Part shown: positions 17,987 to 22,900 of the stretch, in pieces | Layout of the letters: each line of letters opens with the position of its first letter | Numbering within the stretch: position 1 is the stretch's first letter | Assembly: GCA_030390025.1 (NCBI GenBank) | Contig: CM059432.1 | Span: 33,296,001 to 33,360,000, forward strand | Origin: Squalus acanthias | Taxonomy: Eukaryota | DNA: 64,000 nucleotides | Direction: 5' to 3' | Notes under the pieces: model-generated | Database searches by the model: none | What the model saw: only the letters and a program-made list of their open reading frames with translations | Told to the model about the DNA's origin: nothing | Made by a program: the position numbers and the translations under genes

Positions 17987-18321
17987 GGGGCGGAGCCAGG
18001 GTCAGACTGACAGGAGGCGAGGGAGGGGCGGAGCCAGGATCAGATTGACAGGAGGCGAGGGAGGGGCGGAGCCAGGGTCAGATTGACTGCAGGCGAGGGA
18101 GGGGCGGAGCCAGGATCAGATTGACAGGAGGCGAGGGAGGGACGGAGCCAGGATCAGATTGACAGGAAGCGAGGGAGGGGCGGAGCCAGGGTCAGATTGA
18201 CAGGAGGCGAGGGAGGGGCGGAGCCAGGGTCAGATTGACAGGAGCCGAAGGGAGGGGCGGAGCCAGGGTCAGATTGACAGGAGCCGAAGGGAGGGGCGGA
18301 GCCAGGGTCAGATTGACAGGA
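17987..18321 (+). repeat. 38/39-bp GC-box minisatellite, block 1 (9 units)
   Basis: Unit GGGGCGGAGCCAGGGTCAGATTGACAGGAGGCGAGGGA starting at 17987, 18025, 18063, 18101 and onward. Confidence 0.95.
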
Positions 18322-20536
18322 AACGAAATAACAACAGAAGACGCTGGAAAAACTCAGCAGGCCAGACAACATCCGTGGAGAGAGAAAGAGAGTTAACGTT
18401 TCAGGTCGAAACCCTTCGTGGGAACTGAAAGAGCAGGAAATAAACAGATAAAAATGCAAGGGGGAGGCTGGGGGGAGGAATAAAAGAACAAAAGGGATGG
18501 TCTATAGTAAGTAGAGACATTAAGAGATGCTCAAGGCAAGACGAGATGGTAATGGGACAGGTTGAGAAACAAAAGTTAAGGTGTGAAATGCTGGCAGAAT
18601 CAGAGACAGCTGCCGTGGGGGGAGAGAGAGAAAAAAAAAGGAAAGAGGCACGGACCAAAAGAGTGGATAAAATGTGGTAGGGGCCGGGGTTATGATCTGA
18701 AATTGTTGAACTCGATATTGAGTCCGGAAGGCTGTAAAGTGCCTAAACAAAAGATGAGGTGCTGTTCCTGGCGCTTACGCTGCGCTTCTGTGGAACAATG
18801 CAAGAGGCCGAGGACGGTGAGGTCTGAGTGAGCGTGGAGGGGTGAATTAAAATGACAAGCGACCGGAAGCTCGGGGTCACCCTTACGGACTGAACGGAGG
18901 TGTTCCGCAAAGCGGTCACCCAATCTGCGTTTGGTCTCCCCAATGTAGAGGAGACCACATCGTGAGCAGCGAATACAGTATACTAGATTGCAAGAAGTAC
19001 AAGTAAATCGCTGTTTCACCTGGAAGGGGTGTTTGGGGCCCTGGAGAGTGGGAAGGGGGGATGTATAAGGGCAGGTGTTGCATCTCCTGCGCTTGCACGG
19101 GAAGGTGCCGGGTGAAGGGGAAGGGGTGCTGGGGGTGATAGAGGAGTGGACTAGGGTGTCTCGGAGGGAGCGGTCCCTACGGAATGCTGAAAGGGGAGGT
19201 GAGGGGAAGATACGTTTGGTGGTGGGATCACGTTGGAGGTGGCGGAAATGGCGGAGGATGATCCGTTGAATGTGGAGGCTGGTGGGGTGAAAGGTGAGGA
19301 CAAGGGGAACTCTATCGTGGTTCCGGGAGGGAGGGGCCGGGGTGAGGGCAGAAGTGCGGGAGATGGAACGGACACGGTCGAGGGCCATGTCGACCACGGT
19401 AGAGGGGAATCCTCGGTTGAGGAAAAAGGAAGACATGTCGGAAGCACTGGTATGGAAGGTGGCATCGTCGGAGCAGATGCGGCGGAGACGGAGAAACTGG
19501 GAGAAGGGAATAGAGTCCTTACAGGAGGCGGGGTGGGAGGAAGTGTAGTCCAGGTAGTTGTGGGAGTCAGTGGGCTTGTAGTGAATGTTGGTCAATAACC
19601 TATCCCCAGAGATGGAGACAGAGAAGTCGAGGAAGGGGAGGGAAGAGTCGGAGATGGACCATGTGAAGGTGAGGGAAGGGTGGAAATTGGAGGCAAAGTG
19701 AATGACATTGTCTAGTTCGGGGCGAGAGCAGGAAACGGCACCGATACAGTCGTCAATGTACCGGAAAAAGAGGTGAGGGAGGGGACCCGAGTAGGACTGG
19801 AACAAAGAGTGTTCCACATATCCCACGAAAAGGCAGGCATAGCTAAGACCCATGCGGGTACCCATAGCAACACCTTTGATTTGGAGGAAATGAGTGGAGT
19901 CAAAGGAGAAGTTGTTCAATGTGAGAACAAGTTCAGCCAGGTGGAGGAGGGTGGCGGTGGATGGGGACTGGTTGGGCCTCTGTTCAAGGAAGAAGCGGAG
20001 CGCCCTCAGGCCATCCTGGTGGGGGATGGAGGTGTAGAGGGATTGTACGTCCATGGTGAAAAGGAGGCGGTTGGGGCCAGGAAACTGGAAACTGTTAAAG
20101 TGGCGGAGGGCGTCAGAGGAATCGTGGATGTAGGTGGGAAAGGACTGGACAAGGGGAGAAAAAATAGAATTGAGATAGGAAGAGATAAGTTCCGTGGGGC
20201 AAGAACAGGCTGAAACGATGGGTCTACCAGGGCAGTCCTGTTTGTGGCTCTTGGGAAGGAGGTAGAAGCGGGCTGTGTGGGGTTGGGGAACTATGAGGTT
20301 GGCGGCCGTGGGGGGAAGATCTCCAGAGGAGATGAGGTCAGTGGGCCGTGGGGGGAAGATCTCCAGAGGAGATGAGGTCAGTGACAGTCTTGGACACGGT
20401 GGCTTGATGTTCGGTAGTGGGGTCATGGTCCAGGTGGAGGTAGGAGGAGGTGTCGGAGAGTTGGCGTTCAACTTCCACTAGGTAGAGGTCGGTTCGCCAA
20501 ACAACAACAGCACCACCCTTGTCAGCAGGTTTAATG
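18322..20536 (-). mobile_element. Penelope-like retroelement family A, 5'-truncated (RT + GIY-YIG endonuclease)
   Basis: KPADKGGAVVVW, GRPIVSA, MDVQSLYTSIP, GVAMGT, RYIDD, LVYCIRC..CGLLYIGET; 12-bp TSD AGATTGACAGGA (18310-18321 / 20537-20548). Confidence 0.95.
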
Positions 20537-20625
20537 AGATTGACAGGAGCCGAGGTAGGGGCGGAGCCAGGGTCAGACTGACAGGAGCCGAAGGGAGGGG
20601 CGGAGCCAGGGTCAGATTGACAGGA
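20537..20625 (+). repeat. Same minisatellite, block 2 (about 2.3 units) between two PLE insertions
   Basis: Same unit sequence. Confidence 0.92.
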
Positions 20626-20726
20626 ACACAAAAGCAAAATACTGCGGATGCTGGAAATCTGAAATAAAAACAGAAAATGCTGGAAATACTCAGCAGGTCA
20701 AGCAGCATCTGTGGAGCGAGAAATAG

Positions 20727-20763
20727 AGTTAACGTTTCAGGTCAATGACCCTTCGTCAGAACT
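20727..20763 (-). ncRNA. Minimal hammerhead ribozyme motif (PLE family A)
   Basis: Minus strand AGTT-CTGACGA-A-GGGTC-ATT-GACCT-GAAA-CGTT-AACT. Confidence 0.7.
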
Positions 20764-22339
20764 GGAAAAAGTTGGAGATGGAACAGGTTTTTAAGCAAGT
20801 GGAGGGGTAGGGAAAGACGGCAGGGGAGGAAAGAACAAAAGGGAAGGTCTGTGATAGGATGGAGGGCAGGAGAGATTAAGAGACAAAAGGGATGATGGTG
20901 CAAGGCAAAAGGAGATGGTAATGGGACAAGTTAAGAAACAAAAGATGGCTCTGGATGAAGAGTAAATGGCACTGGCAGAATGATCGACGGCTGCCATGTG
21001 AGAGAGAGAAAAAAAATGGAAAAAAAAGATAGGGGCCGAGGTTATGGTCTGAAATTGTTGAACTCGATGTTGAGTCCAGAAGGCTGTAAAGTGCCTAATC
21101 GAAAGATGAGGTGCTGTTCTTCGAGTTTTGTGAGCAGCGAATACAGTATACTAAATTGCAAAAAGTACAAGTAAATCGCTGTTTCACCTGGAAGGAGTGT
21201 TTGGGGCCCTGGACAGTGGGAAGGGAGGAGGTAAAAGGGCATGTGTTGCATCTCCTACGCTTGCATGGGAAGGTGACATTCTCCCAGTTTCTCCGTCTCC
21301 GCCACATCTGCTCTGATGATGCCACCTTCCATACTAGTGCTTCCGACATGTCTTCCTTTTTGCTTTACCGAGGATTCCCCTCTACTGTGGTTGACACGGC
21401 CCTTGACCGTGTCCGTTCTATTTCCCGCACTTCTGCTCTCACCCCTTCCCCTCCCTCGCGAACCACGATAGGGTTCCCCTTGTCCTCACCTTTCACCCCA
21501 CCAGCCTCCACATTCAATGGATCATCCTCCGCAATTTCCGCCAGCACCAAACACATCTTCCCCTCAACTCCCCTTTCAGCATTCCAAAGGGACCGCTCCC
21601 TCCGCGACACCCTGGTCGACTCCTCTATCACCCCCAACACCCCTTCCCCTTCACTCGGCACCTTCCCATGCAAGCGCAGGAGATGCAACACATGCCCTTT
21701 TACCTCCTCCCTTCCCACTGTCCAGGGCCCCAAACACTCCTTCCAGGTGAAACAGCGATTTACTTGTACTTCTTGCAATTTAATATACTGTATTTGCTGC
21801 TCATGATGCGGTCTCCTCTACACTGGGGAGCCCAAACGCAGATTGGGTGGCCGCTTTGCGGAACACATCCGTTCAGTCCATAAGGGTGACCCCGAGCTTC
21901 TGATCGCCTGTCACTTTAATTCTCCGCTCCACTCCCACTCTGACCTCTCTGTCCTCGGCCTCTTACACTGTTCCAATGAAGCTCAACGTAAGCTTGAGGA
22001 ACAGCACCTCATCTTTCGATTAGGTACTTTATAGCCTTCTGGACTCAACATCGAGTTCAACAATTTCAGACCATAACCTCGACCCCATCTTTTTTTTCCA
22101 TTTTTTTTCTCTCTCTCACATGGCAGCTGTCTTTCATTCTGCCATCGCCATTTACACTTCATCTGGAGCCATCTTTTGTTTCTTAACTTGTCCCATTACC
22201 ATCTCCTTTTGTCTTGCACCATCATCCCTTTTGTCTCTTAATCTCTCCTGCCTTCCATCCTATCACAGTCCTTCCCTTTTGTTCTTTCCTCCCTACCCCT
22301 CCACTTGCTTAAAAACCTGTTCCATCTCCAACTTTTTCC

Positions 22340-22376
22340 AGTTCTGACGAAGGGTCATCGACCTGAAACGTTAACC
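22340..22376 (+). ncRNA. Minimal hammerhead ribozyme motif (PLE family A)
   Basis: AGTT-CTGACGA-A-GGGTC-ATC-GACCT-GAAA-CGTT-AAC. Confidence 0.7.
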
Positions 22377-22476
22377 GTGTTTCTCTCTCCACAGAGGCTG
22401 CCTGACCTGCTGAGTATTTCCAGCATTTTCTGTTTTTATTTCAGATTTCCAGCATCTGCAGCATTTTGCTTTTGTA

Positions 22477-22650
22477 TCAGATTGACAGAAGCCGAGGGTG
22501 GGGCGGAGCCTGTGGATGATTGACAGGACCCGAGGGCGGGGCGGAGCCTGTGGAAGATTGACAGGAGCCGAGGGCGGGGCGGAGCCTGTGGAAGATTGAC
22601 AGGAGCCGAGGGCGGGGCGGAGCCTGTGGAAGATTGACAGGAGCCGAGAG
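22477..22650 (+). repeat. Same minisatellite, block 3 (variant unit, about 4.5 copies)
   Basis: GGGGCGGAGCCTGTGGAAGATTGACAGGAGCCGAGGGC, period 38. Confidence 0.92.
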
Positions 22651-22738
22651 TGGGGAGGACAGATGGAGCTGCAGAGGATCCGCAGAGGAGGCGGGGTTTG
22701 TATGACGGAGAGTGGAGCCGGGCCGAGGAGTGACGGCA

Positions 22739-22900
22739 GGGGGCGGAGCCAGGGCTGGGCCCGGCGGACAGGGGGCGGAGCCAGGGCGGGGCCCGGCGGA
22801 CAGGGGGCGGAGCCAGGGCGGGGCCCGGCGGGCAGGGGGCGGAGCCAGGGCGGGGCCCGGCGGGCAGGGGGCGGAGCCATGGCGGGCAGGGGGCGGGGCC
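22739..22900 (+). promoter_or_regulatory. 32-bp CpG-rich GC-box repeat (about 5 units), probable SNAP47 proximal promoter
   Basis: GGGGGCGGAGCCAGGGCGGGGCCCGGCGGGCA at 22739, 22771, 22803, 22835, 22867, followed by CpG-rich unique sequence. Confidence 0.7.

What the first reader, a model, noticed from the sequence alone, without database searches (positions are those of the whole stretch)
17987..22900. Two Penelope elements inserted at the same nucleotide of a promoter minisatellite
Seen: both PLE insertions lie in the 38-bp repeat array and both begin right after ...AGATTGACAGGA. Duplicated flanks are AGATTGACAGGA (18310-18321 / 20537-20548) and TCAGATTGACAG(G/A)A (20612-20625 / 22477-22490). 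The two elements differ in sequence, length and structure. Known: endonuclease-bearing PLEs use a GIY-YIG nuclease and are usually described as having only loose target preference. Inference: two independent hits at one phase of a 38-bp unit suggest sequence-directed targeting, or guidance by a bound factor, into an open housekeeping promoter.
Basis: partly seen in the sequence, partly recalled or inferred. Interest (0 to 1): 0.75.

Follow-up and report, generated by a model that had tools for sequence, protein, structure and literature searches.

The report
Penelope elements reuse one minisatellite site
Two different Penelope-like jumping genes landed separately at the same position of a repeated 38-base unit between two shark genes, likely because that unit offers their cutting enzyme a favoured spot fifteen times over, while the family's thousands of other landing sites are merely A/T-rich, so this looks like a local hot spot rather than dedicated promoter targeting.

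Summary
Observation confirmed. Two Neptune-type Penelope-like elements (E1 18322-20536; E2 20626-22476, 13.9% diverged) split a ~15-unit GC-box minisatellite between head-to-head JMJD4 and SNAP47 in a shark. Both start after ...GATTGACAGGA with 12 and 13-14 nt duplications. Different subfamily, tail state and 5' junction exclude a duplicated single insertion. The coincidence is unlikely under uniform insertion (about 3e-5 per such array), and A/T bias alone does not explain it. But the family does not target this motif: 9,686 contig ends at the tailed 3' end in four public runs (three organisms) give A/T-rich, low-agreement flanks (0.37-0.39) without GATTGACAG, and 3 of 3 other copies in the window lie elsewhere. 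Best reading: a sequence-favoured nick site multiplied by the array. Gaps: E1-subfamily flanks and empty alleles were not shown by the tool; no genome was available. Leads: the site matches the element's own tail 11/14 and overlaps a PBX/PREP-like motif. An earlier scan note (e1-9979726) reports motif hot spots for a Penelope element elsewhere in this genome.

The parts
16974..17231 (-). JMJD4 first coding exon (ATG at 17231), 755 bp from the array
   Evidence: 91% identical to Heptranchias perlo JMJD4; six coding segments map 17231 to 4688
17986..18321 (+). Left array, 8.8 type-A units of 38-39 bp: GC box GGGGCGGAGC plus (A)GATTGACAG
18310..18321 (+). Left copy of E1 target duplication AGATTGACAGGA
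18322..20536 (-). E1: 5'-truncated Neptune-type Penelope-like element, tail-less 3' end at 18322
18690..20477 (-). E1 open frame (595 aa stop to stop): RT with YIDD, CX4CXXC linker, GIY-YIG with CC/HH residues
   Evidence: (RVT_1 E 4e-4, GIY-YIG E 6e-4, both below Pfam cut-off)
18933..19097 (-). CX4CXXC linker and GIY-YIG core of E1
   Evidence: residues 412-466 of 18693-20330
20304..20383 (.). Perfect 40-bp tandem duplication that shifts E1's 5' part out of frame
18398..18422 (-). E1 hammerhead-like motif with altered core (CCCACGA where the other copies have CTGACGA)
   Evidence: motif reading by eye, Rfam 0 hits at gathering score
20537..20625 (+). Middle array segment, 2.3 type-A units, beginning with E1's right duplication and ending with E2's left duplication (20612-20625)
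20626..21275 (-). E2 left arm: 3' part of the element with 35-nt tail (20626-20660), about 190 bp deleted at 21128/21130
21277..22476 (+). E2 right arm: 1.2 kb 3' part with tail, joined head to head to the left arm; stops and frameshifts
22344..22369 (+). Hammerhead-like motif CTGACGA...GAAAC of E2 right arm (mirror copy 20734-20759 on -)
   Evidence: not matched by Rfam; no folding signal
22477..22659 (+). Right array, 4.8 type-B units (GCCTGTGGA), beginning with E2's right duplication 22477-22490
22737..22886 (+). Second GC-box array, 32-bp unit, no GATTGACAG, no insertion
25467..25940 (+). SNAP47 first coding stretch (part queried), divergent from JMJD4
   Evidence: 89-90% identical to shark SNAP47

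Best explanation
Two unrelated copies of a very abundant Neptune-type Penelope-like retroelement inserted independently at the same phase of a tandem 38-bp unit, likely because the element's GIY-YIG nuclease has a moderate sequence preference that this one spot of the unit meets and the array repeats about fifteen times. Shown: independence, shared junction, 12-14 nt duplications, A/T-rich and motif-poor flanks family-wide. Inferred: both events used nearly the same pair of staggered nicks (top strand after GACAGGA, bottom strand at GGT/CAGATT or one base further), the top-strand 3' end primed reverse transcription of E1 and of E2's left arm, and the bottom-strand end primed or was joined to E2's right arm; E2 (decayed, at the border of unit types A and B) came first and E1 (open frame, lineage-enriched subfamily) later. 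It is a local hot spot of a loosely targeted element, not a dedicated promoter-targeting system.
For: Independence: 13.9% divergence, tail absent in E1 and present in E2, different 5' junctions. Both strand boundaries agree within 1-2 nt in the two events. Uniform insertion gives about 2.6e-5; a 39- to 84-fold per-site preference makes the coincidence a 1-in-1000 to 1-in-214 event. The 12 nt before the junction are among the 6 most A/T-rich of 76 phases, and all 6 overlap the same patch. Family-wide flanks are A/T-rich with a faint (C/A/T)TA next to the end, agreement 0.37-0.39 against 0.318 expected for no preference. A related PLE protein nicks and extends both strands and prefers ATT in A/T-rich DNA (PMC11167929, main text parts 1-2 of 4 read); Neptune elements are proposed to favour simple repeats through the CX2-5CxxC linker (PMC8557442, passages). 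E1-type 3' UTR depth is 6.9-7.6% of the shared tail depth in organism A against 0.23-0.62% in organisms C and D, whose contigs still cover the unit at 18287, so the unit probably predates E1.
Against: The top-strand junction (..GACAGGA) matches the family flank consensus only at the last A; an A/T-only model gives a same-phase chance of just 1.3-2.9% and lowers the array's insertion rate to 0.04-0.75 of average, so the needed preference is real but not identified here. The nicks do not fall on the ATT itself. It is one locus and two events, found post hoc. Rows for E1's own end and for empty alleles were cut (9,485 loose-end rows and 1,954 joints not shown). Of the three other copies in the window none shares the 3' junction sequence.
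Confidence: 0.5

Rival explanations
1. Self-mimicry: the nuclease (or the RNA in the complex) recognises a sequence like the start of the element's own tail, and the array unit imitates it, so the unit is cut as if it were a pLTR.
For: TCAGATTGACAGGA, the exact 14-nt duplication of E2, matches the tail start TCAGATTTCCAGCA at 11 of 14; 266 of 50,000 random window 14-mers and 38 of 3,000 shuffled units do as well. CAGATTnnC[AT]G occurs 17 times in the window: 10 in the array, 4 in element tails, 3 elsewhere. The copy at 16104 sits at C/AGATT of a SINE whose empty copies match the array site at 8 of 13. The D. virilis nuclease is said to need the tail for recognition (as cited in PMC11167929).
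Against: 275 of 3,000 random window 38-mers also reach 11/14 somewhere; motif chosen after the fact. The SINE insertion has another geometry (4 nt lost, no duplication). The recurrent tail-to-tail joint in reads is 20628/20664 (8, 2, 4, 11 contigs), not the 20649 that the array's geometry predicts. Flank consensus shows no such motif. PMC11167929 reports that RT starts at RNA sites not homologous to the cut DNA.
Confidence: 0.15
2. Chance: a family with very many copies and only an A/T bias hit the single A/T-rich patch of one array twice; the scan picked the outlier.
For: Five insertions in this 64-kb window; summed contig depth at the tail is about 1e5 times that at the unit (the tool warns this is no copy number). 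Flanks are motif-poor. Many arrays exist (27 TRF rows in this window).
Against: Same-phase chance stays 1.3-2.9% under A/T weighting and the GC-rich array becomes a poorer target; only 214 windows of this genome carry notes, so a 3e-5 event is not expected to turn up.
Confidence: 0.2
3. Host-factor or chromatin guidance: the array is an open bidirectional promoter and a bound PBX/PREP (TALE) or Sp/KLF factor positions the element.
For: The array lies between divergent JMJD4 and SNAP47; host DNA there has GC 0.67, CpG o/e 0.66 against 0.41 for the window and 21 of the window's 25 GGGGCGG boxes. The duplicated AGATTGACAG fits 9 of 10 of the Prep1 decamer tGAxtGaCag, which is bound mostly at promoters (PMC4395233, passages); all 14 GATTGACAG of the window are in the array.
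Against: Family-wide flanks are A/T-rich, the opposite of GC-box promoters. A bound factor would be expected to shield the very bases between the nicks (inference). The neighbouring 32-bp GC-box array has no insertion. No binding, transcription-start or chromatin data were obtained.
Confidence: 0.1
4. One insertion duplicated by unequal crossover in the array, then converted to another subfamily.
For: 47 identical nt upstream of both junctions; both follow a 39-bp unit variant, of which the array has 3 of about 15.
Against: E1 lacks the 35-nt tail that E2 has at this junction, shares only the first base with it, differs by 24% in the 3' UTR and has its own 5' junction and duplication length. 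Crossover could at most have brought two separately inserted alleles together, which still needs two hits.
Confidence: 0.05

Closest known systems
Neptune/Nematis-clade endonuclease-positive Penelope-like elements (as described in Craig et al. 2021, PMC8557442, passages read)
   Same: RT followed by CX2-5CxxC linker and C-terminal GIY-YIG with CCHH residues; 5' truncation, inverted 5'-truncated partner, optional 30-40 nt tail, variable duplication; proposed bias for tandem repeats.
   Different: The repeat hit here is a GC-rich 38-bp minisatellite at a fixed phase, not a (TA)n/(CA)n microsatellite; family flank consensus shows no microsatellite pattern. Neptune versus Nematis not resolved (no reference tree).
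PAc, Poseidon-type PLE of Anolis carolinensis (Frangieh et al. 2024, PMC11167929, parts 1-2 of 4 read)
   Same: Two 3' end classes (with and without tail) as in E2 and E1; A/T-rich targets; both strands nicked and extended, which fits E2's two tailed arms; hammerhead-like motif near the end.
   Different: PAc cuts at ATT; here the boundaries lie 2-3 nt before and 7 nt after the unit's only ATT. This element has the zinc-finger-like linker that the paper above assigns to Neptune/Nematis, not Poseidon.
Site-specific PLE-X elements of Selaginella in 28S rDNA (PMC8557442, passage)
   Same: PLEs found repeatedly at a precise position of a multicopy host sequence.
   Different: Those lack the nuclease and are family-wide specific; this family has the nuclease and is dispersed with low-information flanks.
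Adineta vaga Penelope elements (PMC3846280, passages)
   Same: Inserts flanked by inverted pLTRs with 8-10 bp duplications, internal deletions, optional tail.
   Different: No repeated use of one host site described in the passages read; duplications here are 12-14 nt.

Membership tests
Canonical EN+ Penelope-like element | RT followed by a C-terminal GIY-YIG nuclease in one frame | tested here: met
   both Pfam hits weak, below cut-off; 1031 homologues; many carry PF00078, some PF01541
Canonical EN+ Penelope-like element | CCHH motif: two Cys inside the GIY-YIG core, two His behind it | tested here: met
   LVYCIRCSRCGLLYIGET and HLRSV...ACHF
Canonical EN+ Penelope-like element | Optional 30-40 nt tail, inverted 5'-truncated partner, target duplication | tested here: met
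   35-nt tail in 5 of 6 ends, absent in E1; E2 fold-back; 12-14 nt duplications; two end classes in reads at 20628-30 and 20662-63
Canonical EN+ Penelope-like element | Hammerhead ribozyme in the pLTR | tested here: inconclusive
   CTGACGA...GAAAC by eye in 4 ends, altered in E1; Rfam 0 hits; no folding signal
Canonical EN+ Penelope-like element | Tandem pLTR-ORF-pLTR full-length unit | not testable with these tools
   all copies in the window are 5'-truncated; no genome held
Neptune/Nematis clades | CX2-5CxxC linker upstream of GIY-YIG | tested here: met
   CKRRRCNTC 412-420; pattern found in 95 of the 120 listed homologues, core alone in 103
Neptune/Nematis clades | RT phylogeny with named reference elements | not tested
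   no named Neptune, Nematis or Poseidon references among the hits
Neptune/Nematis clades | Insertion bias for microsatellites | tested here: inconclusive
   flank consensus A-rich without clear periodicity; a consensus line cannot show a minor class; 0 of 5 window insertions in a microsatellite
Site-specific retrotransposon (R2/Tx1/PLE-X type) | Most copies inserted at one target sequence | tested here: not met
   agreement 0.37-0.39 over 9,686 contig ends, no motif; 3 of 5 window insertions elsewhere; E1-subfamily rows not shown

The most novel reading that the evidence does not exclude
The nuclease of this shark Neptune element recognises a copy of its own tail start (CAGATTnnCWG) and cuts it with a fixed 12-14 nt stagger; host sequences that mimic the tail, here a PBX/PREP-like site repeated in a bidirectional promoter and perhaps a SINE core, become precise hot spots inside an otherwise dispersed family.
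Probability: 0.15. Interest if true: 0.62.

Novelty: new member of a known kind. Interest (0 to 1): 0.33.

Why it matters
How endonuclease-bearing Penelope elements choose targets is poorly known: one full-length protein has been studied in vitro (PMC11167929). A natural site cut twice with the same two-strand geometry is a ready substrate for a nicking assay of a Neptune-type enzyme and hints that 'loose' preference hides specific hot spots. If the tail-mimic reading held, it would tie the unexplained tail to target choice. The locus also shows 4 kb of retroelement tolerated between two divergent genes. As it stands it is one locus of a known element class.

Tried and rejected
No whole genome is held for this window, so no target-site logo could be built directly. 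Pattern scans for the element's tail found 0 stretches in metagenome contigs and 0 in viral contigs. Protein scan of metagenomes gave 48 loci, best 49% identical, too distant to inform on this family's targets; TRF on them (first 60 lines seen) showed nothing at a comparable junction. Rfam: 0 hits; folds of the 3' end no better than shuffles (z 0.19-1.47). Empty-allele joints (18321 to 20549; 20625 to 22491-type) were not among the 15 joints shown of about 1,970, and the second lies partly outside the stretch laid, so polymorphism is untested. No RNA holder is on record and no RNA run was laid: expression and start sites untested. Rejected: duplication by unequal crossover; A/T content as sufficient cause; family-wide GATTGACAG targeting. 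The bottom-strand end (..TGTCAATCTG) matches 3 of the 5 non-A letters of the X1 flank consensus, read by eye, not significant. One comparison used a wrong offset (46163) and was dropped; the right offset (46168) was read by eye as 8 of 13. Literature: searches listed no paper on target sites of shark PLEs or on PLE hot spots in minisatellites; the library lacks most subscription papers (Pyatkov 2004 and Arkhipova 2006 seen only as cited), and supplements were not opened. One search (JMJD4 + SNAP47) seen as listing only and not used.
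Full report
Setting. The window is from a shark: the JMJD4 exon at 16974-17231 is 91% identical to Heptranchias perlo and 90% to Pristiophorus, six coding segments run leftwards from an ATG at 17231, and a SNAP47 coding stretch starts at 25467 on the other strand (89-90% to shark proteins). Between them lies a 38-39-bp minisatellite in three pieces (8.8, 2.3 and 4.8 units), 582 bp or about 15 units once the inserts are removed. Host DNA there has GC 0.67, CpG o/e 0.66 (window 0.41) and 21 of the window's 25 GGGGCGG boxes. 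'Promoter' is thus plausible from position and composition; no transcript or chromatin data were laid. The unit's other motif, AGATTGACAG, fits 9 of 10 letters of the Prep1 decamer tGAxtGaCag (PMC4395233, four passages read); all 14 GATTGACAG of the window are in the array, against 0.87 expected.

The inserts. E1 (18322-20536, minus) is a 5'-truncated element with a 595-codon open frame, weak RVT_1 and GIY-YIG hits, a CKRRRCNTC linker before the GIY-YIG core, present in 95 of 120 listed homologues, and a 40-bp duplication that shifts its 5' part. The linker is the mark of Neptune/Nematis elements in PMC8557442 (12 of 30 passages shown, read); no tree with named references was built. E2 (20626-22476) has two arms joined head to head at 21275/21277, each ending in a 35-nt tail that E1 lacks. 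The arms differ at 33 of 635 sites; whether by age or by two templates I cannot tell. E2's right arm has stops and frameshifts. Tailed and tail-less ends, fold-back partners and short duplications are all described PLE features (PMC11167929 parts 1-2 of 4; PMC3846280 ten passages).

Observation. Both left junctions follow GGTCAGATTGACAGGA, with 47 identical bases upstream. Duplications are 12/12 and 13/14 as stated. Slack: the T at 22477 can belong to the element; E1's first bases overlap what may be the element's own TCC; and in a tandem array a duplication is formally equivalent to a loss of the rest of a unit. The two events are independent: 158 of 1133 sites differ between E1 and E2's right arm, 81 of 332 in the 3' UTR, and both ends differ in kind.

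Is it chance? Five insertion events lie in 58.5 kb of host DNA. Two in the array: about 1e-3; same phase: 2.6e-5, uncorrected for the choice of array. A per-site preference of 39- to 84-fold would make it a 1-in-1000 to 1-in-214 event. The 12 nt before the junction tie for the highest A/T count among 76 phases (6 tie, all in the same patch), but weighting by A/T content alone gives same-phase chances of 1.3-2.9% and lowers the array's rate to 0.04-0.75 of average for weights up to those matching the data. So A/T bias does not suffice.

Family-wide test. With no genome I laid contigs of 4 of the 24 listed runs (X2, X1 organism A; X12 organism C; X13 organism D) on 18270-20830 at 85% likeness. 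Loose ends before the tailed end (20628-20630) number 2576, 1727, 2732 and 2651 contigs (9,686; contigs, not independent insertions, and the tool says not all were counted). Their consensus lines are A/T-rich, ending mostly in (C/A/T)TA before the element's terminal AT, with agreement 0.37-0.39 against 0.318 for no preference; tail-less ends at 20662-63 (509, 332, 518, 478) look the same (0.36-0.38). No line shows GACAGGA. If the consensus is a per-column majority, sites of the array type are at most about 8-15% of junctions. The faint TA could come from the RNA beyond the start point rather than from the target. The three other copies in the window (13090-13223, 16104-16180 in a SINE, 62189-63401 at an A/T-rich end) are not next to the motif. 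Limits: rows for E1's end at 18322 were among the 9,485 not shown, and empty-allele joints were not among the 15 shown. Depth over E1's distinctive 3' UTR is 7.6% and 6.9% of the shared tail depth in organism A but 0.23% and 0.62% in C and D, while contigs of C and D cover the unit at 18287 (depth 10.4 and 50): E1's subfamily likely expanded after the split and the unit is likely older than E1.

Mechanism. Best reading (0.5): a loosely targeted nuclease with a hidden moderate preference nicks the top strand after GACAGGA and the bottom strand 12-14 nt upstream; the top 3' end primed E1 and E2's left arm, and the bottom end took E2's right arm, in line with PAc nicking and extending both strands (PMC11167929). 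The array multiplies the site. Nick positions, priming and order of events are inferred from junctions. What the preference is remains open. One lead (0.15): the duplicated 14-mer matches the start of the element's own tail at 11 of 14 (266 of 50,000 random 14-mers, 38 of 3,000 shuffled units, but 275 of 3,000 random 38-mers somewhere); CAGATTnnC[AT]G has 17 matches in the window, 10 in the array, 4 in tails, 3 elsewhere; the SINE insertion at 16104 also sits at C/AGATT but with 4 nt lost and no duplication; the recurrent tail-to-tail joint in reads (20628/20664) does not fit the array's geometry. Chance (0.2), factor guidance (0.1) and duplication-conversion (0.05) are the other rivals.

Earlier scan notes (unchecked, a few lines each): e1-9979726 reports a Penelope-like element of this genome hitting the same base of two SINE copies and preferring a short motif shared with two LINE families; the motif was not visible to me, and the one SINE insertion in this window is compatible but not a test. 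e1-7790103 and e1-9860681 describe fold-back inserts like E2 as ordinary; the latter argues arms are not made independently, which cautions against a two-template reading of E2.

Known and new. It works like, and by tested features is, a canonical endonuclease-positive PLE of Neptune/Nematis type; it fails the defining test of a site-specific element. Paper searches listed nothing on shark PLE targets or minisatellite hot spots, within a library that lacks most subscription journals; supplements were not opened. Verdict: real, independent double hit; local hot spot of a known kind of element; interest 0.33.

Noticed in passing
window 20612-20625 versus 22441-22454: The duplicated target 14-mer matches the start of the element's own tail at 11 of 14 positions.
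   Followed up: partly
window 16104-16183: An 80-bp tailed end of the same family sits in a SINE-like repeat at CACTAAAAC/AGATT with 4 target bases lost and no duplication; empty copies at about 43966 and 46168.
   Followed up: partly
window 20625/22477: E2 sits exactly at the border between unit types A (GCCAGGGTCA) and B (GCCTGTGGAA), as if it split the array into two separately homogenising halves.
   Followed up: no
window 18398-18422: E1's hammerhead-like core reads CCCACGA where the other four ends read CTGACGA; unknown whether this is subfamily-wide.
   Followed up: no
window 20628/20664 (joints): A tail-to-tail joint between a tailed end and a tail-less end recurs in all four runs (8, 2, 4, 11 contigs).
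   Followed up: partly
window 22737-22886: Second GC-box minisatellite (32-bp unit, 4.7 copies, 97% matches) next to the first, without insertions.
   Followed up: no
window 59385-61228: 1.8-kb array of a 36-bp unit (about 47 copies) with long open frames on both strands.
   Followed up: no
window 48022-48866 and 58922-59145: A 290-bp inverted repeat pair at 98.6% (48022-48311/48577-48866) and a related near-palindrome at 58922-59107, resembling a young non-autonomous DNA transposon.
   Followed up: no
window 62189-63401: 1.2-kb decayed copy of the same PLE family at an A/T-rich site, with a short duplication at its 5' junction.
   Followed up: partly
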